Positions 283 to 8,187 of a stretch of 64,000 nucleotides of DNA are shown here, piece after piece. The notes beneath the pieces were generated by a model, which saw nothing but the letters and a program-made list of their open reading frames with translations, searched no databases and was not told the origin of the DNA. The stretch is from Candidatus Binatia bacterium. GTDB taxonomy: Bacteria > Eisenbacteria > RBG-16-71-46 > SZUA-252. The DNA lies in the NCBI GenBank assembly GCA_035631035.1, contig DASQJL010000076.1, positions 13,482 to 77,481 on the forward strand, written 5' to 3'. The stretch's first letter is position 1, and each line of letters begins with the position of its first letter. The position numbers were made by a program, and so were the translations under genes.

Positions 283-816
283 TCAGGGAAGCTGGGAGTC
301 CTTGAAGTTCGCCACCTGGACCGGGACGCTGGCCAGCGCCTCGACCTTGTCGCCGTTGTTCGAGCCGTTGGCCATCACGAACCCGTAGACCTTGATGCGC
401 GCCGTCGTGGCGGTCGCGACATTCGTCGGCACGGAGGCCTTGGCGCCCAGATCGCTCAGCGCGATCGAGCCGTCGGCGGTGCCGCCCGAGGGAACGCGAA
501 GGGTGAGGCCGCCCGAGTAGGGAGGATAGATGCCGTTGTCGTAGGTGACCGAATACCCGGTCACGACGATCTCGGAGTACGGGCTTCCCGGAGCGAGCGG
601 CGCCGAGCCGTCGGCCGGGACGTTGCCGAGCGTGATCTTCGCTTCGTCCGCCACGACCGTGCCGGAATCCGAAACCAGGTCGCTGTAGAAGACGTTGCCG
701 TCGTTCACCGAGACCACCGTGAGGAAGGAGCGGGTGGACGTGTCGGTGCATCCTCCGATCGCGAGCAGCGCGATCCCTGCGAGCGCCGCGAGCGCGAGCA
801 ACCTGAGCGTCTTCAT
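283..816 (-). CDS. secreted lipoprotein, unknown function (177 aa)
   Basis: N-terminus MKTLRLLALAALAGIALLAIGGC has a signal peptide and lipobox (IGG-C). AAGGAGA RBS lies 7 nt upstream of the ATG. Gly/Ser/Thr-rich beta-type composition. Confidence 0.6.
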   Translation of the reverse strand: MKTLRLLALAALAGIALLAIGGCTDTSTRSFLTVVSVNDGNVFYSDLVSDSGTVVADEAKITLGNVPADGSAPLAPGSPYSEIVVTGYSVTYDNGIYPPYSGGLTLRVPSGGTADGSIALSDLGAKASVPTNVATATTARIKVYGFVMANGSNNGDKVEALASVPVQVANFKDSQLP

Positions 817-998
817 ATCGGTCTCCTTGGCCTACGCGATCCCCATCGCGCATGAAGCGGGTAGGAACGGCATACGAAACCCCGCAGCCGGAAACGCAAA
901 GGGCATGCCACATGTAGGCCCGAAGGGCCGGGCTGTAAGTAACACCGTTTACAGAGGCTTATCGGCGGTGGCTCAACTTTGTCCCATGGCAGCGAAAC

Positions 999-1026
999 GG
1001 GCGCCGTGCATAACGCATCGGCGCCC
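999..1026 (-). terminator. candidate intrinsic terminator of the SOD gene: stem GGGCGCCG/CGGCGCCC, 12-nt loop, followed by GUUUCG on the - strand transcript
   Basis: Perfect 8-bp GC stem 27 nt downstream of the SOD stop in an intergenic region. Confidence 0.35.
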
Positions 1027-1052
1027 GCCGGACTGCAACGCGATGAAGCCGG

Positions 1053-1664
1053 TTACTTCTTGGCCATCGCCATGCTCGCCGCGTTCGTGAAACGGCGGTT
1101 CACCTCGTCCCAGTTGATGTTCCGCATGAACGCCTCGACGTAGGCCTTCCGGTCCGAGCCGTAGTCGATGAAGTAGGAGTGCTCGTACGTGTCGCAATTG
1201 AGCACCGGAATCGTGCCCCAGACGCCGCCCTGGTTCTGGGCGTCGCCGATGAAGTTGTGGAGCATGCGGTCGGTGGGGTCGTAGGCGAGAACGACCCAGC
1301 CGCGCGCGCACATCGCGGAAGCCTTGAAGTCCTCCTCCCACGCGGCGAACGTTCCGAAGTCCTCCTTGATCTTGTCGACGACCTCGCCCTTGGGCTGTCC
1401 GTCGCCGCCCATGATCGAGAAGTAGATCTCGTGGAGGATCTGGCCGTTGGCGGCAAACGTCTCCTCGGCCTTCAGCCCCCGCATCTCGCTGTAGATCTGA
1501 TTGGCCTTGCTGCGGTCGACCTTCTGCAATGCCTCTTCGATCTCGTTCCGCTTGTTCACGTAGCCCGCGTACAGCTTGTCGTGGTGGATCTCCATCGTCT
1601 TCGACCCGATCCCCTTCAACGCGTCGTTCGCGTAGGGGAGGGGTTGAACGGGGTGCTTGGCCAT
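1053..1664 (-). CDS. sod: Fe/Mn-family superoxide dismutase (203 aa)
   Basis: MEIHHDKLYAGYVNKRNE and the WEHAYY-like region (DTYEHSYFIDYGSDRKAYVEAF) match the SodA/SodB family over the full length. AAGGAG RBS. Confidence 0.85.
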   Translation of the reverse strand: MAKHPVQPLPYANDALKGIGSKTMEIHHDKLYAGYVNKRNEIEEALQKVDRSKANQIYSEMRGLKAEETFAANGQILHEIYFSIMGGDGQPKGEVVDKIKEDFGTFAAWEEDFKASAMCARGWVVLAYDPTDRMLHNFIGDAQNQGGVWGTIPVLNCDTYEHSYFIDYGSDRKAYVEAFMRNINWDEVNRRFTNAASMAMAKK

Positions 1665-1802
1665 GAGGGCGTCTCCTTATGTCCCGCCGCGAGGCGGCGG
1701 AATGGGGTCCTTGGAGAATGAGGCAGCCACTATATCAGATGCGCCGCGACGGGGTTGGGAGCGCGTCCCGAGGGCCGCGGGCGCCGCGGAAGCCCGCCGG
1801 GT

Positions 1803-4499
1803 TCAGTTCTCCTGGCCGGGAAGCCGCCGTCGGATCGATTCGACGCGGTAAAGGCGCGGTCCCTTCTCTTCCAGCGCCAGCTCCACCTCGGCGCCCACTT
1901 CCTTGCCGAGCAGGTTCCGCGCGAGGGGCGCCCGGTAGGAGAGCACCCCGGGGGCGATGTTCCCGTCCCCCTCGCCCAAAATCCAGAAGGTGACCGGGGG
2001 ATCGTTGTTGCCCTCGGGGCGCAGCGTCGCCTCGGTGCCGACGCCGACGCGCGAGGAGTCGACTTCGAGGTTCTCGATCAGGCGCGCGCGCTGGATCATC
2101 CCCATCACTTCCTGAAGCCGGGCCGCGGCATTCGCCTGCCGCTGCTTGGCCGCCTCGTACTCGGCGTTTTCGCGCAGGTCGCCCAGCGCGCGCGCCTTTT
2201 CGATGGCGGCGGGGATCGAGGTCTTGAGGTCGCGCGCGATCTTCGCCATCTCCACGTTGAGCCGGTCGTAGGTGGCGCGCGTCATGAGGGTGAACTGCGT
2301 GTCCACGTCCTCGGTGCTGCGCCCCTCGAGCAGATCCTGCGCCCTCGCCTTGCGGCGGCGCTCGTATTCGTCGCCCAGGTCCCCCAGGCCGACTTCCTGG
2401 AGGAACTCGAGGATCGGGACGAGGCGCCGCTCGCTGCCGTTCCAGTGGAGCACCGTGCGCTCCAGCGCTTCCGCGGTCTCCGTTTCGGGGGGCGTGGCGC
2501 GGAAGCGCCGATGGAGCAGCCCGCCGTCGGCGACCAGCCCGTAGAGGCGCTCCGGCACGCCCTCGGGGAGGTCCCCTTCGAGAAGGCGGACCGTGGCGAC
2601 GAGGAGCGCGTCCATCGTCGGGGCCCCCGCGTCGTCGGGGTGGGCCGCGAAGTGCTCGACGAGCCGCGCCGAGAGCGCCGGGTGCTCCGACGCGCGCGTC
2701 ATGCGCTGCTCGATCGCGCGCGCGTAGCGCTCGGGCCCGAGCAGCTCGCGGAGCCGCTCCCGGCCCTCCTCGCGGAGCCGGGGAAGCCGGCTCTCGACGG
2801 CGAACCAGAGGAACTCCTCCTCGCCCGCGACGCCGCGCGAGAGCCCGAGGAGCTGCTCCTGGTTCAAGCCGAGCGCCAGGTCGTCGGGCCGGAGTCCGGC
2901 CGCGATGAGGTCGGCGAGGATGACCTGCGCGGTCTCCTTCGGCACCGAATGCCAGGAGAGCGCGTAGCAGAGCGCCTGCGCGCGCATCGTCCCCTCGAGC
3001 CGCTCGTCCTGGGACCAGCGCGCGACGAGCGGGCCCGCGTGCGCGCTCAGGCGCGGCTCGTCCTCGGGGTGCTCGCGGAGGAACTTGCGGATCAGCTGAA
3101 GTCCCGCGCCGGGCGCCTTCGGCGCGATCGTGGGCAGCGTGGCCGCGGCCGCCTCGCTCCCCTCGGGCGCAAGCCGGAACTGCCCGCGGTACGCCTCGCT
3201 CGTGTCGAGGCGCGCGTCGGTCTTCCAGCGCTCCTTGACCCGCTTCCAGAAGAGGGTCGCGTCGAAGCCGGGGAGCGCCGCTTCCAGGCGCGGCTTCATC
3301 TGCGCCTGCGTCGCGGCTCCGCCCATGTCGCGGAGCACCCGCGCGATCACCTCGGGGTCTCCCTCCGCCGCGAGCGCGCGGGCGCGCTCCGGCTGCTCGA
3401 TCGCGAGGACGCGAAGGCCGTCGCTCGGGAGCCGGTCCAGGGAACGGGACGCCATGGCGAAGGACATCTTGTGTCCGGAGCGGCCGGTGAAGTCCAGGGT
3501 CAGCGAATCGCCGTCGCTCGCGAGGACGCGACCGATCCCCCAGGTCTGGTGCGTGACGTAGGCGCCGGGCGGCAGGGCCAGGATCTTCGGCACCCGCGCG
3601 GCGATCGCGTCGTACGACTCGCTCGGATCGAGGATCCCCGAGCCCTGGATGATCGCTTCGGGATCGGGCTCCTTGCCCACGACGATCCGGAAGAGCCTGG
3701 CGAACATGGCGCGCCCGGCGGTGCCGCCCGGCAGGCGCGGGAGGATCGGAGCGACGTCGTCCCAGTCGAAGCGCCCGCTGGCGCGCTCCTCGAGCGGCGG
3801 AATCGCGAGATCGAGGATCGATTCCGAGTCGCTCCAGGGGGCCAGGGCCGCGTAGCGAAGGAGGATCTTCCCGATGCGGACTGGCGCGGTTTCGAGATCC
3901 TCGTCCACCGCGCGGAAGAGCGCCTCGCTCAACCCTTCGTGGACTCCGTCGTCCAGCGAGAGCTCGACGGCCCGGAGCCGGTGCTCGCGCGCGGCTTCGC
4001 GCGCATCGGGATCGGCGGAGCGCTCGAGCAACGCGGCGAGATCGGCGTGCAGCTCGGGATCGGCGTGGCGGATCCCGATCGCGGTGCGTAGCCAGTCGGC
4101 GCGCTCCTCTTCGGATGCCGCGGGATTCTGCGAGAGGAAGTGGAGGAAGCGCACCGCGGCGGGGGTCGGCTCCGGCTCGAGAAAGCGGGGAAGGAGCGCC
4201 AGCACGCCGTCCCGGTCGCCGGCCGCGAGCAGCTTGTCCGAGACGACCTCGAGGGCGTCGAGCGCGCGCGCCCGCTCGCCCAGTCCCTGCTGGAGCAGGG
4301 CGGCCAGGAGCAGGAGATCCCAGCGCTTCTTTCGCGCCGGCTCCTGCTCGAGCGCCTTGAGCGCGGCCTCGGCCGCGCTTCGCTCGATCAGGCGGTGCGC
4401 GAGAAGCTCGGTGTCCGCCCAGCGCGGATCGCCGTGGCGAAGCGGCGGCTCCTCGCCGGTGGCGCTCTTCAGATAGGCTCGCAGCTCTGCGTCGATCAT
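1803..4499 (-). CDS. large GreA/GreB-domain fusion protein (898 aa from ATG 4499; the ORF opens at TTG 4535)
   Basis: The C-terminal ~155 aa are a complete GreA-like module: coiled coil …GDLRENAEYEAAKQRQANAAARLQEV… plus an FKBP-like domain …VGVGTEATLRPEGNNDPPVTFWILGEGDGNIAPGVLSYRAPLARNLLGKEVGAEVEL…. The preceding ~740 aa are helical and contain a Tudor/CarD-like stretch YVTHQTWGIGRVLASDGDSLTLDF. GAGGAT RBS precedes ATG 4499. Confidence 0.7.
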   Translation of the reverse strand: MIDAELRAYLKSATGEEPPLRHGDPRWADTELLAHRLIERSAAEAALKALEQEPARKKRWDLLLLAALLQQGLGERARALDALEVVSDKLLAAGDRDGVLALLPRFLEPEPTPAAVRFLHFLSQNPAASEEERADWLRTAIGIRHADPELHADLAALLERSADPDAREAAREHRLRAVELSLDDGVHEGLSEALFRAVDEDLETAPVRIGKILLRYAALAPWSDSESILDLAIPPLEERASGRFDWDDVAPILPRLPGGTAGRAMFARLFRIVVGKEPDPEAIIQGSGILDPSESYDAIAARVPKILALPPGAYVTHQTWGIGRVLASDGDSLTLDFTGRSGHKMSFAMASRSLDRLPSDGLRVLAIEQPERARALAAEGDPEVIARVLRDMGGAATQAQMKPRLEAALPGFDATLFWKRVKERWKTDARLDTSEAYRGQFRLAPEGSEAAAATLPTIAPKAPGAGLQLIRKFLREHPEDEPRLSAHAGPLVARWSQDERLEGTMRAQALCYALSWHSVPKETAQVILADLIAAGLRPDDLALGLNQEQLLGLSRGVAGEEEFLWFAVESRLPRLREEGRERLRELLGPERYARAIEQRMTRASEHPALSARLVEHFAAHPDDAGAPTMDALLVATVRLLEGDLPEGVPERLYGLVADGGLLHRRFRATPPETETAEALERTVLHWNGSERRLVPILEFLQEVGLGDLGDEYERRRKARAQDLLEGRSTEDVDTQFTLMTRATYDRLNVEMAKIARDLKTSIPAAIEKARALGDLRENAEYEAAKQRQANAAARLQEVMGMIQRARLIENLEVDSSRVGVGTEATLRPEGNNDPPVTFWILGEGDGNIAPGVLSYRAPLARNLLGKEVGAEVELALEEKGPRLYRVESIRRRLPGQEN

Positions 4500-4602
4500 C
4501 GTTGGGATCCTCGAGAATCCGCTAGGATAGCGCAAGGAGGCTCCCCTCGGATAGACTCTCCGGCTTCACGCGACGCGCTTCGAGCGAAGGGACCGAACGG
4601 TC

Positions 4603-4677
4603 GCAGCGTCGGGGCGCACGAAGGGGGCAGCGTCGGGGCGCACGAAGGGTCGCCGCGTCGGAGCGCACGAAGGGGGG
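4603..4677. repeat. three tandem copies of a ~24-bp unit GCAGCGTCGGGGCGCACGAAGGG in the divergent promoter region between the GreA-fusion gene and the EamA gene
   Basis: Copies at 4603-4625, 4627-4649 and 4650-4677, the third slightly degenerate. Confidence 0.8.
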
Positions 4678-4745
4678 ACCGGATCCCGAAGCGGACACGA
4701 CTCATCCTGGCCCTGAGCGCGAACCAGCTTCTTGCGAGCGGCACC

Positions 4746-5594
4746 CACGTGATCGCGAAAGGCGCGCTGCTCCGGCTGAACCCGCTCGCGCTGGCGCTGC
4801 TCCGCTTCGTTTCGGCTTCCCTCGTGCTCTTCGCCTATCTCCGGTTCCGCACCGGGCTCGCCCGCGTGGAGCGGCGCGACTGGCCGGCGTTCCTCCTGCT
4901 CGGCTTCCTCGTCATTCCGGGGAACCAGGGGTTCTTCCTGTTCGGATTGGCCCGCTCGACGGCGAGTCATGCGGCGCTGCTCTACGCCTTGACGCCCCTG
5001 ATCGTGCTGCTGTTCGCCAGGCGCCTGCTGCGCGAAGAAGGGTTCGTGTCCAAGCTCCTGGGCATCGTCGCCGCGTTCACCGGCGTTGCGGTCATCCTCC
5101 TCGAGCGCGGGCTGCGGCACGAAGTGGGACTGTTGAGCGGCGATCTCCTCATCCTGGTCGCGGTCTTCGCGTGGGCCGCCTACACCGTTCTCTCGAAGCG
5201 GCTGCTCGCGCGCTACGACCCGATGACGGTGACCGGGTGGTCGATCATCTCGGGAACGCTGATGTGCCTGCCGGCGCTGTTCGTGCCCGGGGCCATTCCG
5301 CGCCTGGAGTCGATCCCGATCGGCGTGTGGGGCGCCATCGCCTACCTCGCCGTCGGCACCTCGGTCATCGCCTACCCGCTCTGGTCCTACGCGCTGCGCC
5401 ACATGGACGCCTCGAAGGTCGCGATCACGTCCAACACGCAGCCGATCCTGACCGCGGCGCTATCCTGGCTGCTCTTCCGGGAGCGGTTCACGCCCGGGTT
5501 CTTCGTCGGGGCCGCGCTGATCCTGGCCGGCGTCACGTGGGTGGAGACGCGCCGGCCGGGCATGGCGCGGGTCGTGCCGGTGGAGGCGGGGTGA
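4746..5594 (+). CDS. EamA/DMT-family (drug/metabolite exporter) 10-TMS membrane transporter; start codon uncertain
   Basis: Two EamA-type repeats (…NPLALALLRFVSASLVLF…, …YLAVGTSVIAYPLWSYALRHMDASKV…). TM1 seems to begin at LILALSAN (4701) but no ATG/GTG/TTG lies in frame upstream of it. GTG 4746 is the first canonical start. Confidence 0.55.
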   Translation, partial: HVIAKGALLRLNPLALALLRFVSASLVLFAYLRFRTGLARVERRDWPAFLLLGFLVIPGNQGFFLFGLARSTASHAALLYALTPLIVLLFARRLLREEGFVSKLLGIVAAFTGVAVILLERGLRHEVGLLSGDLLILVAVFAWAAYTVLSKRLLARYDPMTVTGWSIISGTLMCLPALFVPGAIPRLESIPIGVWGAIAYLAVGTSVIAYPLWSYALRHMDASKVAITSNTQPILTAALSWLLFRERFTPGFFVGAALILAGVTWVETRRPGMARVVPVEAG

Positions 5595-5595
5595 T

Positions 5596-7026
5596 GTGGG
5601 CGAAGACCGGCCGGGCGGGCCGCTCGTGACGCGCCGGCCGCCGCTCCGGGGCGACGAGCTTCCGGAGATTCGGGTCCCGCCGCCGGGGCCGAAGTCGCGC
5701 GCCTCCTCGCGAAGACTGCGGCGCGCCGAGGGCGCCGCGATCTGGGGCGCCGACCCATCGCCCATCGTCTGGTCCCGCGCGCGAGGCTCGGTCGTCGAGG
5801 ACCTGGACGGCAACCGCTACGTCGACCTGACGAGCGGCTTCGGCGCCGCGACGCTGGGTCATGCCTCGCCGGAAGTGGCGCGCGCGGTCGCCGCGCAGGC
5901 CCGGCGCCTGTCGCAGGGGCTGGGCGACCTCCATCCGCACGTGGCGCGCGAGAAGCTCGTGCGCAAGCTCTCGGCGTTGGGCGGAGCGTTGAGCCGCGTG
6001 CTCGTGACCGGCACCGGATCGGAAGCGGTGGAGCTGGCGCTGAAAACCGCTGCGCTCGCGACCGGGCGCCGGCGCGTCGTCGCGTTCGAGGGCGGCTACC
6101 ACGGTCAATCGGGCGCCGCGCTCGAGGTCACGCACTTTCCTCGGTCTCCGGAATTGCTGCAGCCGGCGGGTCCGCCCCGCGCGATTCCCATTCCGTTTCC
6201 CGATCCGCGACACTGCGGGGCGCGCACGCCGTGCGAGGCGTGCGACCTTTCCTGTCTCGATCGCGGATGGGAGCGCTCGGTAACGCCCGAGCTTCGAGGG
6301 AGCGATCCTCCCGGCGCGGTGATCGTCGAGCCGGTCCAGGGACGGGCGGGCGTGATCGTCCCGCCGCCGGAGTTTCTCGCGCGTCTGTCGGCCCTGGCCC
6401 GCGAGGCCGGAATGCTCGTGATCTACGACGAGATCCTGACCGGCGCCGGCCGCACCGGCCCCTTCTGGGCCTGGAAGCGGAGCGGCGCGGCGGCGGAGCC
6501 CGACCTGATGACGGCAGGGAAGGGGATCGGCGGCGGCGTGGCGATCGGCGCGCTCTTCGGCAAGTCCCAGGTCATGGAGGTATGGTCGCGTCACGTCTCC
6601 TCGTCGGGCGAGTCACCGTACGCGAGCACGTTTTACGCGCACCCCCTGGCATGCGCGGGTGCGCTGGCCGCGCTGGAGCGGCTGACGTCGGAGGAGATCG
6701 CGTCGTCTCGGGAGGCGATCGCAGGGATGCTTCTCGATGCGCGACCACCCCTCGGTTTCACGATCCGGGCTCTGGGCGCCATGGCCGCGATCGAGCCGGA
6801 AGACACAAGGCGCTCGACCACTCCTTCCGCGGAGGGCGGTCGGCGCCTCGCCGCGCCACTCGACCCAGATCGGACCGAGAGAAGCCTATACCTGCCCCTG
6901 CTGCACCGCGGAGTCATCGCCATCCCCGGAGGCATCAGCTCCGCGGCCGTCAGCATGTACCCCGCCTTCACGATCACCCCCCAACAGCTCGCGCACGCCA
7001 TGGATGTCGTGTCTTCGCTTTCCTAG
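5596..7026 (+). CDS. class III pyridoxal-phosphate aminotransferase (GABA/ornithine/acetylornithine aminotransferase family), 476 aa, GTG start
   Basis: Motifs DLTSGFGAATLGH, DEILTGAGRTG and TAGKGIGGG (PLP-lysine region). Confidence 0.8.
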   Translation: MGEDRPGGPLVTRRPPLRGDELPEIRVPPPGPKSRASSRRLRRAEGAAIWGADPSPIVWSRARGSVVEDLDGNRYVDLTSGFGAATLGHASPEVARAVAAQARRLSQGLGDLHPHVAREKLVRKLSALGGALSRVLVTGTGSEAVELALKTAALATGRRRVVAFEGGYHGQSGAALEVTHFPRSPELLQPAGPPRAIPIPFPDPRHCGARTPCEACDLSCLDRGWERSVTPELRGSDPPGAVIVEPVQGRAGVIVPPPEFLARLSALAREAGMLVIYDEILTGAGRTGPFWAWKRSGAAAEPDLMTAGKGIGGGVAIGALFGKSQVMEVWSRHVSSSGESPYASTFYAHPLACAGALAALERLTSEEIASSREAIAGMLLDARPPLGFTIRALGAMAAIEPEDTRRSTTPSAEGGRRLAAPLDPDRTERSLYLPLLHRGVIAIPGGISSAAVSMYPAFTITPQQLAHAMDVVSSLS

Positions 7027-7212: not shown

Positions 7213-8187
7213 CTATTTGGAGATCCTCCCGAACTTCCGCTTCTCCAGCTTCTCGATGAGCGCGTCGAGGGCCCGGTCGAGCACCTGCGCCACGTCCCGC
7301 GGCGACACAGCGTGACTGAGTAGCGCCTGAGCGAGTCGCAGCTTGTCGTGCGTGCCCTTGGAGACCGTTACTTGAACGAGGAAGGAAGGGGGCCGAGCCG
7401 GAGTTGGGGCGTTGTTCCCGGGGGTCCGTTCGACAGCAGCCTCCGGCGATAGATCGTCAGCTCCGGCACTCTCGGGCGATGGATCTTCCGCTCCGGCACT
7501 CTCGGGCGATGGACGGTCAGTGCCGTCCGCCGTTGACGCCTGATTGCGCGAGCCACTGTGCATCGCGGGGCCCGCGGCGTCGACGTCCGAACCCTGTCCG
7601 TCCACGACGACAGTTGTCTCCGATTTCACCGCCGCTAGCGGCGGTAAAAACTTGGGCGGAGCTTCGGGAGTGGGCTCGCCCGCCGGTGAATCGAACATGT
7701 CATGGCGCCGATCGAGCGCAACCGTCTTCGGAAGGGGAAGGGCGACAGGTCGGATGGACGCGAGTGGTGGAACGCTCGAGGCCTGGGGGAAGCGCGAGGC
7801 GAGCCACTCTTGAACTTCGGCCCTGCTCCGGCCTCCGACCGCACGGAGCAGCTCGTTGATATTCCCGGGCGTGAGATGGGGAGCGATCAGGCAAACGGCC
7901 GTGAGATGGATCCTGCCCTCCGCCACCGCCTGGAACAGAACCGGAAAACGCCGCGCCGCCCGCGCCGCTTGGATGCGTCTCCAGGCGGGACCCTCCGCAA
8001 AGCGCAACTCACGGAGGCAGTAGGTGAACATGGAGGAGAACCCTGCCGGAGCGTACAGCCTGCGTGCGTCGAACTCACCAAGGTAAGCCAGGAGAGCCGC
8101 GGTCAGCTGGCCATTGCGGGCGAGAATGATTCGCAGGTTCCGAAGCAGCACGGCGTCGCTGAGATGCGTCAACGAATAGGAATTCAT
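7213..8187 (-). CDS. hypothetical protein with a DUF222-like N-terminal domain (the domain that normally precedes HNH nucleases in 13E12-type proteins); no HNH motif; Pro/Ser/Glu decapeptide repeats in the C-terminal half
   Basis: …FDARRLYAPAGFSSMFTYCLRELRFAEGPAWRRIQAARAARRFPVLFQAVAEGRIHLTAVCLIAPHL… matches the DUF222 pattern. C-terminus has SPESAGAEDP/SPESAGADDL repeats. Confidence 0.45.
   Translation of the reverse strand: MNSYSLTHLSDAVLLRNLRIILARNGQLTAALLAYLGEFDARRLYAPAGFSSMFTYCLRELRFAEGPAWRRIQAARAARRFPVLFQAVAEGRIHLTAVCLIAPHLTPGNINELLRAVGGRSRAEVQEWLASRFPQASSVPPLASIRPVALPLPKTVALDRRHDMFDSPAGEPTPEAPPKFLPPLAAVKSETTVVVDGQGSDVDAAGPAMHSGSRNQASTADGTDRPSPESAGAEDPSPESAGADDLSPEAAVERTPGNNAPTPARPPSFLVQVTVSKGTHDKLRLAQALLSHAVSPRDVAQVLDRALDALIEKLEKRKFGRISK
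7431..7520. repeat. in-frame tandem 30-bp DNA repeat (~2.5 copies; unit CTCCGGCACTCTCGGGCGATGGA…) inside the DUF222-like gene
   Basis: Copies at 7461-7490 and 7491-7520, plus a degenerate copy at 7431-7460. Confidence 0.7.

What the first reader, a model, noticed from the sequence alone, without database searches (positions are those of the whole stretch)
1803..4499. ~900-aa protein with a complete GreA transcript-cleavage-factor module at its C-terminus
GreA/GreB are normally ~160-aa stand-alone factors. Here a full coiled-coil + FKBP GreA unit (…GDLRENAEYEAAKQ…VGVGTEATLRPEGNNDPPVTFWILGEGDG…) ends a large helical protein that also contains a CarD/Tudor-like RNAP-interaction-like stretch (YVTHQTWGIGRVLASDGDSLTLDF). 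This suggests an RNAP secondary-channel factor tethered to an unknown regulatory or scaffold domain. The conserved acidic tip residues of the coiled coil should be checked.
Basis: partly seen in the sequence, partly recalled or inferred. Interest (0 to 1): 0.6.

Follow-up and report, generated by a model that had tools for sequence, protein, structure and literature searches.

The report
Long-form GreA with RNAP-docking Tudor domain
This is a real 898-aa "long GreA": an intact transcript-cleavage factor fused to helical repeats and a UvrD/PcrA-type Tudor domain, an architecture that databases already model for spirochaetes and chlamydiae but nobody has characterised, found here in a Candidatus Eisenbacteria-like genome.

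Summary
Window 1803-4499 (minus strand) is one uninterrupted 898-aa gene, conserved at about 890 aa in over 100 homologues. Its last 160 aa are a complete GreA module: both Pfam domains pass threshold, the fold matches solved GreA/Gfh1 (target TM 0.75-0.79), and the acidic tip D774/E777 (E. coli D41/E44) is invariant. It is closest to the RNA-polymerase-binding C-terminal domains of UvrD and PcrA, and it keeps the His and Trp whose mutation severely reduces PcrA-RNAP binding. A winged-helix-like unit and two helical-repeat domains complete the protein. The architecture is not new. It is collinear with NCBIfam PRK14720 (spirochaete long GreA) and PRK06330 (chlamydial "transcript cleavage factor/unknown domain fusion protein"), and relatives carry Planctomycetota and Lentisphaerota labels. 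The window protein scores far below those models' cut-offs, so it represents a separate clade, found almost only in Candidatus Eisenbacteria MAGs. Most likely it is a working Gre factor held on RNA polymerase by a second, Tudor-mediated contact near the secondary channel. That step is inferred, not shown. Verdict: new member of a known but uncharacterised kind, of moderate interest.

The parts
1803..4499 (-). Long-form GreA coding sequence, 898 aa plus stop
   Evidence: ORF and translation; over 100 homologues of about 890 aa; alignment A1, mean column identity 66%.
3576..4499 (-). N-terminal helical-repeat (TPR-like) domain, aa 1-308
   Evidence: all-helical in the AF2 model, block pLDDT 82-95; only generic solenoid matches. 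TPR Pfam hits in a few remote relatives; this part is shortened or absent in the ~730-aa and ~620-aa classes.
3420..3575 (-). Tudor-like five-stranded beta-barrel, aa 309-360 (PcrA/UvrD type)
   Evidence: five strands, pLDDT above 90; family profile matches UvrD CTD 7egt_B at E=4.7e-5, then 9dqs and PcrA 5dma. Foldseek top hits 7egt_B (target TM 0.82, rmsd 1.1 A, 33% identity), 9dqs, 5dma, 7egs_B, then CarD, CdnL and Mfd; the most conserved part of the N-terminal region (0.80).
3540..3551 (-). H317-Q-T-W320, equivalents of PcrA H681 and W684
   Evidence: alignment to 5dma. (PMC5397179): H681A and W684A each severely reduce RNAP binding. H317 and W320 are invariant in 35 of 35 family members, and present in 39 and 43 of 45 remote core domains.
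3465..3491 (-). F337 to M345 (F337 = PcrA F705; H343-K344-M345 align with PcrA K712-R713-L714)
   Evidence: alignments to 5dma and 7egt_B. F337 present in 45 of 45, H343 in 38 of 45, M345 in 33 of 45 with the rest hydrophobic. The Lys at PcrA position 712 is replaced by an invariant His, with Lys or Arg at the next position.
3165..3419 (-). Small alpha/beta unit after the barrel, aa 361-445, winged-helix-like (tentative)
   Evidence: order H1-strand-H2-H3-strand, pLDDT about 95; weak matches to Zur (4mtd) and a MarR-family protein (1z7u); forkhead 1kq8 at E=1.1; near-invariant Trp at 414 and 418 in relatives, but the window has Ala at 414.
2328..3113 (-). Second helical-repeat domain, aa 463-724
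   Evidence: all-helical, block pLDDT 88-95; generic solenoid matches only.
2292..2327 (-). Flexible linker, aa 725-736
   Evidence: the only segment with pLDDT below 50 (aa 723-733).
2082..2291 (-). GreA N-terminal coiled-coil domain, aa 737-806
   Evidence: PF03449, 56.7 bits; alignment to E. coli GreA 1grj; fold match; conservation 0.81, the highest in the protein.
2169..2180 (-). Acidic coiled-coil tip D774-L-R-E777 (E. coli GreA D41 and E44)
   Evidence: numbering offset of 733 against 1grj. D774, E777 and Y781 invariant in 35 of 35; translation gives DLRE.
1806..2081 (-). GreA C-terminal globular (FKBP-like) domain, aa 807-898
   Evidence: PF01272, 36.7 bits; whole-module superposition on GreA and Gfh1, target TM 0.75-0.79.

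Best explanation
The gene encodes a long-form GreA. Its C-terminal 160 aa work as an ordinary transcript-cleavage factor: the coiled coil enters the RNA polymerase secondary channel and the acidic tip (D774, E777) helps the active site cut backtracked RNA. The preceding 735 aa add a second attachment to the polymerase. A UvrD/PcrA-type Tudor barrel, followed by a winged-helix-like unit, docks on the beta subunit, most likely on the beta lobe beside the channel entrance. Two helical-repeat domains act as spacer and as a platform for partners. A disordered 12-aa linker lets the Gre module swing in and out. The expected result is a Gre factor that stays on the polymerase rather than sampling it from solution, and that would compete with other users of the same docking site, such as UvrD. 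Shown here: domain identities, ORF integrity, conservation of the catalytic residues and of the Tudor contact residues, and the phyletic spread. Inferred: RNA polymerase binding by the Tudor domain, the docking site, simultaneous two-point binding, and the physiological effect.
For: GreA module: both Pfam domains pass their thresholds. The module aligns to E. coli GreA with D41/E44 matching D774/E777, and those residues are invariant in the family. The fold superposes on GreA and RNAP-bound Gfh1 at target TM 0.75-0.79, against 0.45 for the free Gfh1 crystal forms. Tudor domain: the family profile matches the UvrD and PcrA C-terminal Tudor domains (E=4.7e-5, 0.007, 0.034). The confident domain model (pLDDT 91.6) has UvrD, UvrD1 and PcrA Tudor domains as its top structural matches, including 7egs_B, the UvrD CTD bound to the RNAP lobe. 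Remote relative P0247 passes Pfam CarD_TRCF_RID (38 bits, cut-off 23) at the aligned site. H317 and W320 correspond to PcrA H681 and W684, whose single mutations severely reduce RNAP binding, and they are conserved across 45 remote core domains. The Tudor barrel and the Gre coiled coil are the two most conserved segments (0.80 and 0.81). Linkage: 46 of 60 remote proteins that share the core carry both GreA domains. Geometry: the 73-aa secondary-channel factor TraR reaches beta Si1 in the beta lobe with its C-terminal helix (PMC9239242), PcrA CTD binds beta SI1 (PMC8318588), and UvrD CTD binds core RNAP with a Kd of about 77 nM.
Against: No experiment or complex model supports RNA polymerase binding by this Tudor domain. 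The window sequence alone scores only 13.5 bits on Pfam PcrA_UvrD_tudor against a cut-off of 23.9. The Foldseek E-values for the 50-aa barrel are weak (0.01-0.09). The PcrA K712 equivalent is His rather than Lys. PcrA-type Tudor domains also bind UvrB and other proteins through the same motif, so the partner need not be the polymerase. If the lobe and the channel are adjacent, a 260-aa solenoid spacer is not obviously needed. The full-length model has pTM 0.54, so the relative domain arrangement is unknown. The GreA module scores below the NCBIfam TIGR01462 cut-off (110 against 139). Whether the genome also has a short GreA could not be determined.
Confidence: 0.6

Rival explanations
1. The Gre module is functional, but the N-terminal region docks on something other than RNA polymerase. 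The PcrA/UvrD-type Tudor would bind the 'helicase interaction motif' on UvrB or another protein, and the TPR-like repeats would bind further partners. The protein would then link transcript cleavage to DNA repair or another machine rather than simply anchoring itself on the polymerase.
For: PcrA CTD binds the same short motif in RpoB, UvrB, YxaL and YwhK (PMC8318588). The best structural match, 7egt_B, is a UvrD CTD crystallised with UvrB. TPR-like solenoids are typical protein-binding platforms.
Against: The core is linked to a polymerase-binding Gre module in 46 of 60 remote relatives, which fits a polymerase-centred role most simply. No repair gene sits in the conserved neighbourhood. The two roles are not mutually exclusive.
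Confidence: 0.2
2. The Tudor-wH unit binds nucleic acid (upstream DNA or nascent RNA) and so positions the Gre factor on elongation complexes, much as CarD combines a Tudor domain with a DNA-contacting domain.
For: The unit after the barrel has winged-helix-like topology, with weak matches to the DNA-binding domains of Zur, a MarR-family protein and forkhead. Its third helix carries conserved Trp and basic residues. UvrD CTD binds DNA weakly, with Kd 1.9-3.8 uM.
Against: The winged-helix matches are weak (target TM about 0.3, E above 0.1). The window protein itself lacks one of the near-invariant Trp residues (A414). PcrA CTD does not bind DNA.
Confidence: 0.12
3. The protein is a Gfh1-like secondary-channel blocker or regulator that occupies the channel without stimulating cleavage.
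For: Sequence and fold match Gfh1 nearly as well as GreA. The module falls below the NCBIfam GreA cut-off.
Against: The GDLxENAEY tip, with both acidic residues, is invariant and matches GreA. E. coli GreA is the best PDB sequence match (E=4e-13, against 3e-5 for Gfh1). The model adopts the RNAP-bound, active-like domain arrangement.
Confidence: 0.05
4. The long ORF is an artefact: two genes joined by a sequencing frameshift or a mis-assembly.
For: None was found. In one long-read MAG chromosome (L032) the gene appears interrupted.
Against: The ORF is continuous. The same ~890-aa architecture occurs in over 100 independent assemblies and in other phyla. The model is confident across all domain boundaries.
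Confidence: 0.01

Closest known systems
Spirochaete long GreA (NCBIfam NF011309 / PRK14720, 906-position model)
   Same: The length is nearly identical (898 against 891 aa for the Spirochaetaceae protein in L034, which scores 1031 bits on the model). The layout is collinear: aa 227-430 align to 225-422 (Tudor-wH core, 28% identity) and aa 773-891 to 774-890 (GreA, 34% identity).
   Different: The window protein scores only 138.5 bits against the 714-bit equivalog cut-off. The two helical-repeat regions show no significant pairwise similarity. The phylum and the G+C content differ (72% against about 61%).
Chlamydial 'transcript cleavage factor/unknown domain fusion protein' (NCBIfam NF004969 / PRK06330, 718 positions)
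   Same: It has the same Tudor-wH core followed by a helical region and GreA. Window aa 307-448 match model positions 135-280 and aa 728-889 match 558-715. Relatives of about 720-750 aa carry Lentisphaerota and Planctomycetota labels.
   Different: The N-terminal helical domain is about 175 aa shorter in that class. The window scores 95.6 bits against a cut-off of 697.
Canonical GreA/GreB (E. coli GreA, PDB 1grj; GreB 2p4v)
   Same: The coiled coil and globular domain are both present, the acidic tip is identical in pattern (GDLxENAEY), and the fold superposes at target TM 0.71-0.77.
   Different: Canonical factors are stand-alone proteins of about 158 aa. Here the module is the last 18% of an 898-aa protein, and it scores below the TIGR01462 cut-off (110 against 139).
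PcrA/UvrD C-terminal Tudor domain (PDB 5dma, 7egt, 7egs, 6yi2, 9dqs; Pfam PF21196)
   Same: It is a five-stranded barrel that superposes at rmsd 1.1-2.7 A with up to 33% identity. It has the same V-x-H-x-x-W-G-x-G-x-V motif, and the His, Trp and Phe of the PcrA RNAP-binding face are conserved.
   Different: It sits in the middle of a non-helicase protein and is followed by a winged-helix-like unit. The Lys at PcrA position 712 is His. The window sequence alone is below the Pfam threshold.
CarD/CdnL and Mfd RID (Pfam PF02559 CarD_TRCF_RID)
   Same: It shares the Tudor-like polymerase-docking barrel followed by a helical domain. CarD, CdnL and Mfd structures appear among the fold matches. Remote relative P0247 passes the Pfam threshold and four core domains give weak hits.
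   Different: These rank below the UvrD/PcrA type by both sequence and structure. They bind the beta1 domain rather than the lobe/SI1. No Pfam hit was found for the window protein itself.
HelD
   Same: It is a large factor that touches RNA polymerase at more than one site, one of which is the secondary channel. The abstract listed says HelD penetrates two RNAP channels. That its channel-inserting arm is Gre-like is from my own knowledge of the HelD structures.
   Different: HelD is a helicase-like ATPase whose arm lacks cleavage function. There is no homology outside the Gre-like arm. This comparison was not tested here.

Membership tests
GreA/GreB transcript cleavage factors (Pfam PF03449 + PF01272) | N-terminal coiled-coil domain matches PF03449 above the gathering score | tested here: met
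   56.7 bits against 24.5, profile positions 2-70 of 71.
GreA/GreB transcript cleavage factors (Pfam PF03449 + PF01272) | C-terminal globular domain matches PF01272 above the gathering score | tested here: met
   36.7 bits against 26.9, profile positions 4-76 of 77.
GreA/GreB transcript cleavage factors (Pfam PF03449 + PF01272) | Two acidic residues at the coiled-coil tip (E. coli D41 and E44) | tested here: met
   alignment: D774 and E777; invariant in 35 of 35.
GreA/GreB transcript cleavage factors (Pfam PF03449 + PF01272) | Gre fold with both subdomains in the RNAP-bound arrangement | tested here: met
   target TM 0.75-0.79 to 1grj, 3aoi_X, 4wqt_X and 9a7t_B.
GreA/GreB transcript cleavage factors (Pfam PF03449 + PF01272) | Stimulates endonucleolytic cleavage of backtracked RNA | not testable with these tools
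   Needs an in vitro cleavage assay.
NCBIfam TIGR01462 greA (canonical GreA domain model) | Score at or above the curated cut-off of 139 bits | tested here: not met
   110.2 bits. The spirochaete long GreA in L034 reaches 140.7 bits.
NCBIfam NF011309 / PRK14720 (spirochaete long GreA equivalog) | Whole-protein score at or above 714 bits | tested here: not met
   138.5 bits, matching only the Tudor-wH core and the Gre module.
NCBIfam NF011309 / PRK14720 (spirochaete long GreA equivalog) | Collinear architecture: helical repeats, conserved core at about position 300, helical region, GreA at about position 745 | tested here: met
   aa 302-430 match model positions 299-429; aa 732-890 match 745-901; pairwise alignment with a true member.
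NCBIfam NF004969 / PRK06330 (chlamydial fusion protein equivalog) | Whole-protein score at or above 697 bits | tested here: not met
   95.6 bits; the core matches at model positions 135-280.
PcrA/UvrD Tudor domain (Pfam PF21196) | Sequence match above the gathering score of 23.9 bits | tested here: not met
   the window domain scores 13.5 bits (E=0.066). Eight of 45 related core domains hit at E up to 0.1, best 3.2e-5.
PcrA/UvrD Tudor domain (Pfam PF21196) | Family profile recognises solved UvrD/PcrA Tudor domains | tested here: met
   7egt_B E=4.7e-5, 9dqs_A 0.0072, 5dma_A 0.034, 4c2t_A 0.035. These are the four best hits in the whole PDB.
PcrA/UvrD Tudor domain (Pfam PF21196) | Five-stranded Tudor barrel that superposes on solved examples | tested here: met
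   target TM 0.69-0.82, rmsd 1.1-2.7 A.
PcrA/UvrD Tudor domain (Pfam PF21196) | Residues of the RNAP-binding face (PcrA H681, W684, K712, L714; cage residue F705) | tested here: inconclusive
   H317, W320 and F337 are conserved. L714 corresponds to invariant M345. K712 corresponds to invariant H343, with Lys or Arg next to it.
PcrA/UvrD Tudor domain (Pfam PF21196) | Binds RNA polymerase beta lobe/SI1 | not testable with these tools
   Needs binding assays or a complex structure. No rpoB is present in the window.
CarD_TRCF_RID (Pfam PF02559) | Sequence match above the gathering score of 23 bits | tested here: not met
   no hit for the window protein; remote relative P0247 passes at 38 bits at the aligned site; four of 45 core domains give weak hits.
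Pfam PF27167 (listed for most family members in the precomputed table) | Match to the model | not testable with these tools
   One search lists PF27167 for most homologues, including N-terminal fragments, but not for the two closest (P0001, P0002). The model did not appear in my Pfam scan at E up to 1, and I do not know its name or extent.

The most novel reading that the evidence does not exclude
The long GreA is a two-point clamp on RNA polymerase. Its UvrD/PcrA-type Tudor domain would occupy the same beta-lobe docking site used by the backtracking-promoting helicase UvrD, while its Gre arm reverses backtracking. One protein would then both rescue arrested complexes and gate access of UvrD (and perhaps UvrB) to the polymerase. 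In Eisenbacteria, spirochaetes and the PVC group it would be the sole Gre factor, replacing the stand-alone one.
Probability: 0.2. Interest if true: 0.6.

Novelty: new member of a known kind. Interest (0 to 1): 0.38.

Why it matters
Gre factors are thought of as small proteins that sample RNA polymerase transiently and compete with DksA, TraR and others for the secondary channel. Several phyla encode a 600-940-aa form instead or in addition: spirochaetes, chlamydiae and other PVC bacteria, and now Candidatus Eisenbacteria. Databases still call the extra part an "unknown domain". This analysis shows that the conserved heart of that extra part is a UvrD/PcrA-type, polymerase-docking Tudor barrel with a winged-helix-like partner, and that the known contact residues are conserved. 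That gives a concrete, testable mechanism for the whole class, which includes the pathogens Borrelia, Treponema, Leptospira and Chlamydia. It also suggests a physical link between anti-backtracking (Gre) and pro-backtracking (UvrD) factors. For this particular window the result is mostly ordinary: a housekeeping gene of a known architecture in an uncultured phylum.

Tried and rejected
- **Two genes or a frameshift:** rejected. The ORF is continuous and the architecture is conserved.
- **Second Gre gene in the window:** tblastn with the Gre module and with E. coli GreA found only the gene itself.
- **Short GreA elsewhere in Eisenbacteria:** a search with the Gre module returned probable fragments of long proteins on contigs of 0.6-3.5 kb (one, P0280, on a 29-kb contig), plus ~158-aa GreAs at 44% identity or less. 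The only phylum labels found among those are from other phyla. This is inconclusive; a whole-genome scan was not possible.
- **Operon logic:** the neighbours are a Fe/Mn superoxide dismutase, an EamA transporter, a class III aminotransferase and a 5'-nucleotidase. The order is conserved, but there is no evident functional link.
- **Promoter and terminator consensus scan of 900-4800:** nothing found, and not informative for this phylum.
- **Helicase-interaction motif [VIL]DxxTGE[VIL][VILT] in the six-frame translation of the window:** absent, so there is no rpoB or uvrB to test.
- **Genome scan with alignment A2:** A2 was too divergent for pattern design. The tighter alignment A3 was used instead.
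- **Literature:** searches for long GreA in Borrelia or Chlamydia, for locus tags BB0132, CT636 and TP0019, and for GreA with Tudor or CarD fusions found no study of the N-terminal region.
- **Helical-repeat domains:** they gave only generic solenoid matches (PP2A A subunit and other helical-repeat proteins) and no specific family.
Full report
**1. The observation**

The window has about 70% G+C. A single ORF runs 1803..4535 on the minus strand. The ATG at 4499 gives an 898-aa protein, which matches the finding's coordinates. This start is supported by homologues of 886-910 aa that begin at the same place and by a GAGGA 8 nt upstream. The quoted peptides are at aa 773-786 and aa 314-337.

Pfam finds GreA_GreB_N at aa 738-806 (56.7 bits, cut-off 24.5) and the GreA/GreB C-terminal domain at aa 816-890 (36.7 bits, cut-off 26.9). 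Each match covers almost the whole profile. The best PDB sequence match is E. coli GreA (1grj, E=4e-13). In that alignment E. coli D41 and E44 fall on D774 and E777. In an alignment of 35 family members at 53-94% identity (A1), G773, D774, L775, E777, N778, A779, E780 and Y781 are all invariant.

The C-terminus aligns over both Gre subdomains, and the ORF is not a frameshift fusion.

**2. Anatomy**

An AlphaFold2 model built on A1 is confident (mean pLDDT 88.4), but its pTM is 0.54, so the arrangement of domains relative to each other is uncertain. It shows:

| Residues | Element |
|---|---|
| 1-308 | Helical repeats |
| 309-360 | Five-stranded beta-barrel (strands at 314-357) |
| 361-445 | Small alpha/beta unit |
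| 463-724 | Helical repeats |
| 725-736 | Disordered linker (the only segment with pLDDT below 50) |
| 737-898 | Gre module |

Foldseek against the PDB superposes the Gre module on GreA, on a GreA/Gfh1 chimera and on RNAP-bound Gfh1 at target TM 0.75-0.79. The free, flipped Gfh1 crystal forms give only about 0.45. The helical parts give only generic solenoid matches. A few remote relatives give TPR Pfam hits there.

**3. The "CarD/Tudor-like" stretch**

Four lines of evidence agree that this is a Tudor barrel of the UvrD/PcrA type.

- *A remote relative passes a Pfam threshold.* An exhaustive search with the N-terminal 734 aa found 424 representatives. Among them, P0247 (641 aa) passes Pfam CarD_TRCF_RID (38 bits, cut-off 23) and also hits PcrA_UvrD_tudor, at the site that aligns with window aa ~309-340.
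- *The family profile finds solved Tudor domains.* A profile of 45 diverse core segments (A2, 23-37% identity to the window) searched against all PDB sequences returns as its four best hits the C-terminal Tudor domains of T. thermophilus UvrD (7egt_B, E=4.7e-5), M. smegmatis UvrD1 (9dqs, 0.007), G. stearothermophilus PcrA (5dma, 0.034) and a UvrD (4c2t, 0.035). Scanned one by one against Pfam, 8 of the 45 hit PcrA_UvrD_tudor, 9 hit DUF3553 and 4 hit CarD_TRCF_RID.
- *The fold matches.* A domain-only model of aa 296-460 is very confident (pLDDT 91.6, pTM 0.83). Its top Foldseek matches are 7egt_B (target TM 0.82, rmsd 1.1 A, 33% identity), 9dqs, 5dma and 7egs_B (UvrD CTD bound to the E. coli RNAP lobe), followed by CarD, CdnL and Mfd. 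The E-values are weak (0.01-0.09), as expected for a 50-residue barrel, but the ranking is coherent.
- *The contact residues are conserved.* In PcrA, the single mutations H681A, W684A, K712A and L714A each severely reduce RNAP binding (PMC5397179). Through the alignments, H681 corresponds to H317, W684 to W320, cage residue F705 to F337, L714 to M345 and K712 to H343, with K344 adjacent. H317, W320, H343 and M345 are invariant in the family and F337 is present in 34 of 35. In the 45 remote domains they are present in 39, 43, 38, 33 and 45 respectively.

The unit after the barrel has the order helix-strand-helix-helix-strand and weakly resembles winged-helix DNA-binding domains (Zur 4mtd, MarR-family 1z7u, forkhead 1kq8). 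I treat that assignment as tentative.

**4. This is a known class**

NCBIfam already holds two models for long GreA proteins: NF011309/PRK14720 (906 positions) and NF004969/PRK06330 (718 positions, "transcript cleavage factor/unknown domain fusion protein"). The window's N-terminal 734 aa alone match both at collinear positions: aa 302-430 to positions 299-429 of PRK14720 (E=1e-12), and aa 307-448 to positions 135-280 of PRK06330 (E=5e-6).

A genome scan brought in two spirochaete loci. The 891-aa ORF of L034 scores 1031 bits on PRK14720, so it is a true member. It aligns with the window protein at aa 227-430 to 225-422 and at aa 773-891 to 774-890.

The Tudor-wH core defines three size classes. 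It sits at about residue 300 in proteins of ~860-940 aa, at about 125 in proteins of ~700-760 aa, and at about 10 in proteins of ~615-675 aa. Source labels include Planctomycetota and Lentisphaerota. Of 60 remote members, 46 carry both Gre domains.

The window protein fails the equivalog cut-offs by a wide margin (138.5 against 714, and 95.6 against 697) and also the canonical greA model (110 against 139). It therefore belongs to a distinct clade. Its close family is found almost only in MAGs labelled Candidatus Eisenbacteria: 116 clusters at 51% identity or more and 33 of the 35 genome loci. The few other labels (Omnitrophota, Bacteroidota, Limnocylindrales, Hyphomicrobiales and others) are attached to near-identical contigs and are probably binning errors. 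The precomputed tables list a Pfam entry, PF27167, for most members. It did not appear in my own Pfam scan and I could not identify it.

**5. Context**

The gene lies in a housekeeping chromosomal region that includes DnaE, AccA, a PorV-like protein and a T2SS F protein. The local order is conserved in nearly all Eisenbacteria loci: 5'-nucleotidase, class III aminotransferase and EamA transporter on the opposite strand, then the long GreA, a Fe/Mn superoxide dismutase and a 177-aa protein on the same strand. Nothing here suggests a dedicated operon partner. No second Gre gene is present in the 64 kb. I could not determine whether a short GreA exists elsewhere in the genome.

**6. Mechanism**

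*Shown:* an intact Gre module with its catalytic tip, an internal UvrD/PcrA-type Tudor barrel with a conserved contact face, and a flexible linker before the Gre module. The two most conserved segments of the whole protein are the Tudor barrel (0.80) and the Gre coiled coil (0.81).

*Inferred:* the Tudor domain docks on the beta subunit. The UvrD/PcrA type binds the lobe/SI1 (7egs; PMC8318588), with a Kd of about 77 nM for UvrD CTD, at a site distinct from Mfd's beta1 site. That site lies next to the secondary-channel entrance, because the 73-aa channel factor TraR reaches beta Si1 with its C-terminal helix (PMC9239242). A protein carrying both modules could therefore hold on with the Tudor domain while the Gre arm enters and leaves the channel. 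That would raise occupancy and compete with UvrD or other factors.

The main rival reading is that the Tudor domain binds UvrB or another protein carrying the motif. Less likely readings are that the Tudor-wH unit binds nucleic acid, or that the protein is a Gfh1-like blocker. My confidence is about 0.85 that this is a functional long-form GreA, about 0.55 that its Tudor domain binds RNA polymerase, and 0.6 for the combined explanation.

**7. Novelty and verdict**

The architecture is already modelled in curated databases and is annotated automatically as "GreA/GreB family elongation factor". In the searchable literature I found no experimental or computational description of the N-terminal domains. 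The window gene is a new, phylum-specific member of a known but uncharacterised kind. The useful product of this check is the domain assignment and a testable two-point-binding model for the whole class. Interest is moderate, at 0.38.

Noticed in passing
window 283-1664 (minus strand), and loci L004-L032: The long GreA gene is followed on the same strand by a Fe/Mn superoxide dismutase (1053-1664, 138-bp gap) and a 177-aa protein with no Pfam match (283-816). This order, together with the divergent EamA, aminotransferase and 5'-nucleotidase genes upstream, is conserved in nearly all Eisenbacteria loci. The dismutase is unusually conserved, at 78-93% identity.
   Followed up: partly
proteins P0185, P0196, P0207, P0209, P0218, P0228, P0240, P0243, P0250, P0191, P0211 (remote relatives, not in the window): Eleven of 60 remote relatives have the Tudor-wH core at the extreme N-terminus and no GreA module. 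They have similar-looking C-terminal tails and give weak, sub-threshold Pfam GrpE hits (best E=0.009, covering profile positions 9-162 of 165). GrpE, like Gre, is a long coiled coil plus a small beta domain. This may be a sister architecture.
   Followed up: partly
window 3258-3260 (aa 414 of the long GreA): The window protein has Ala where the family (29 of 35) and the wider set (42 of 45) have a near-invariant Trp, in the third helix of the winged-helix-like unit. Its closest relatives share the change.
   Followed up: no
L032 (OY969801.1, complete 3.12-Mb Eisenbacteria MAG chromosome), about 3100-5774: In this long-read assembly only aa 399-894 align as one block, and the database holds a 411-aa fragment (P0115). 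The gene looks interrupted there, probably by an indel error rather than true pseudogenisation.
   Followed up: no
loci L001, L003, L004, L007, L015, L028, L029: Contigs with 57-91% identity in the core domain and the same gene order carry labels from seven different phyla or orders (Omnitrophota, Bacteroidota, Limnocylindrales, Hyphomicrobiales, Binatia, Acidobacteriota, Dormiibacterota). Most of the remaining loci are labelled Candidatus Eisenbacteria, so these labels are probably MAG binning or labelling errors.
   Followed up: no
window 7213-8187 (minus strand): A 324-aa ORF has no Pfam match and contains a short repeated acidic segment (…SPESAGAEDPSPESAGADDLSPEAA…). A 62% identical copy occurs at the same position in L002.
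   Followed up: no
window 1755-4091 (plus strand): A 778-aa ORF lies antisense to the long GreA gene. It is a shadow ORF of the kind typical of 72% G+C DNA. All the homology evidence lies on the minus strand.
   Followed up: yes
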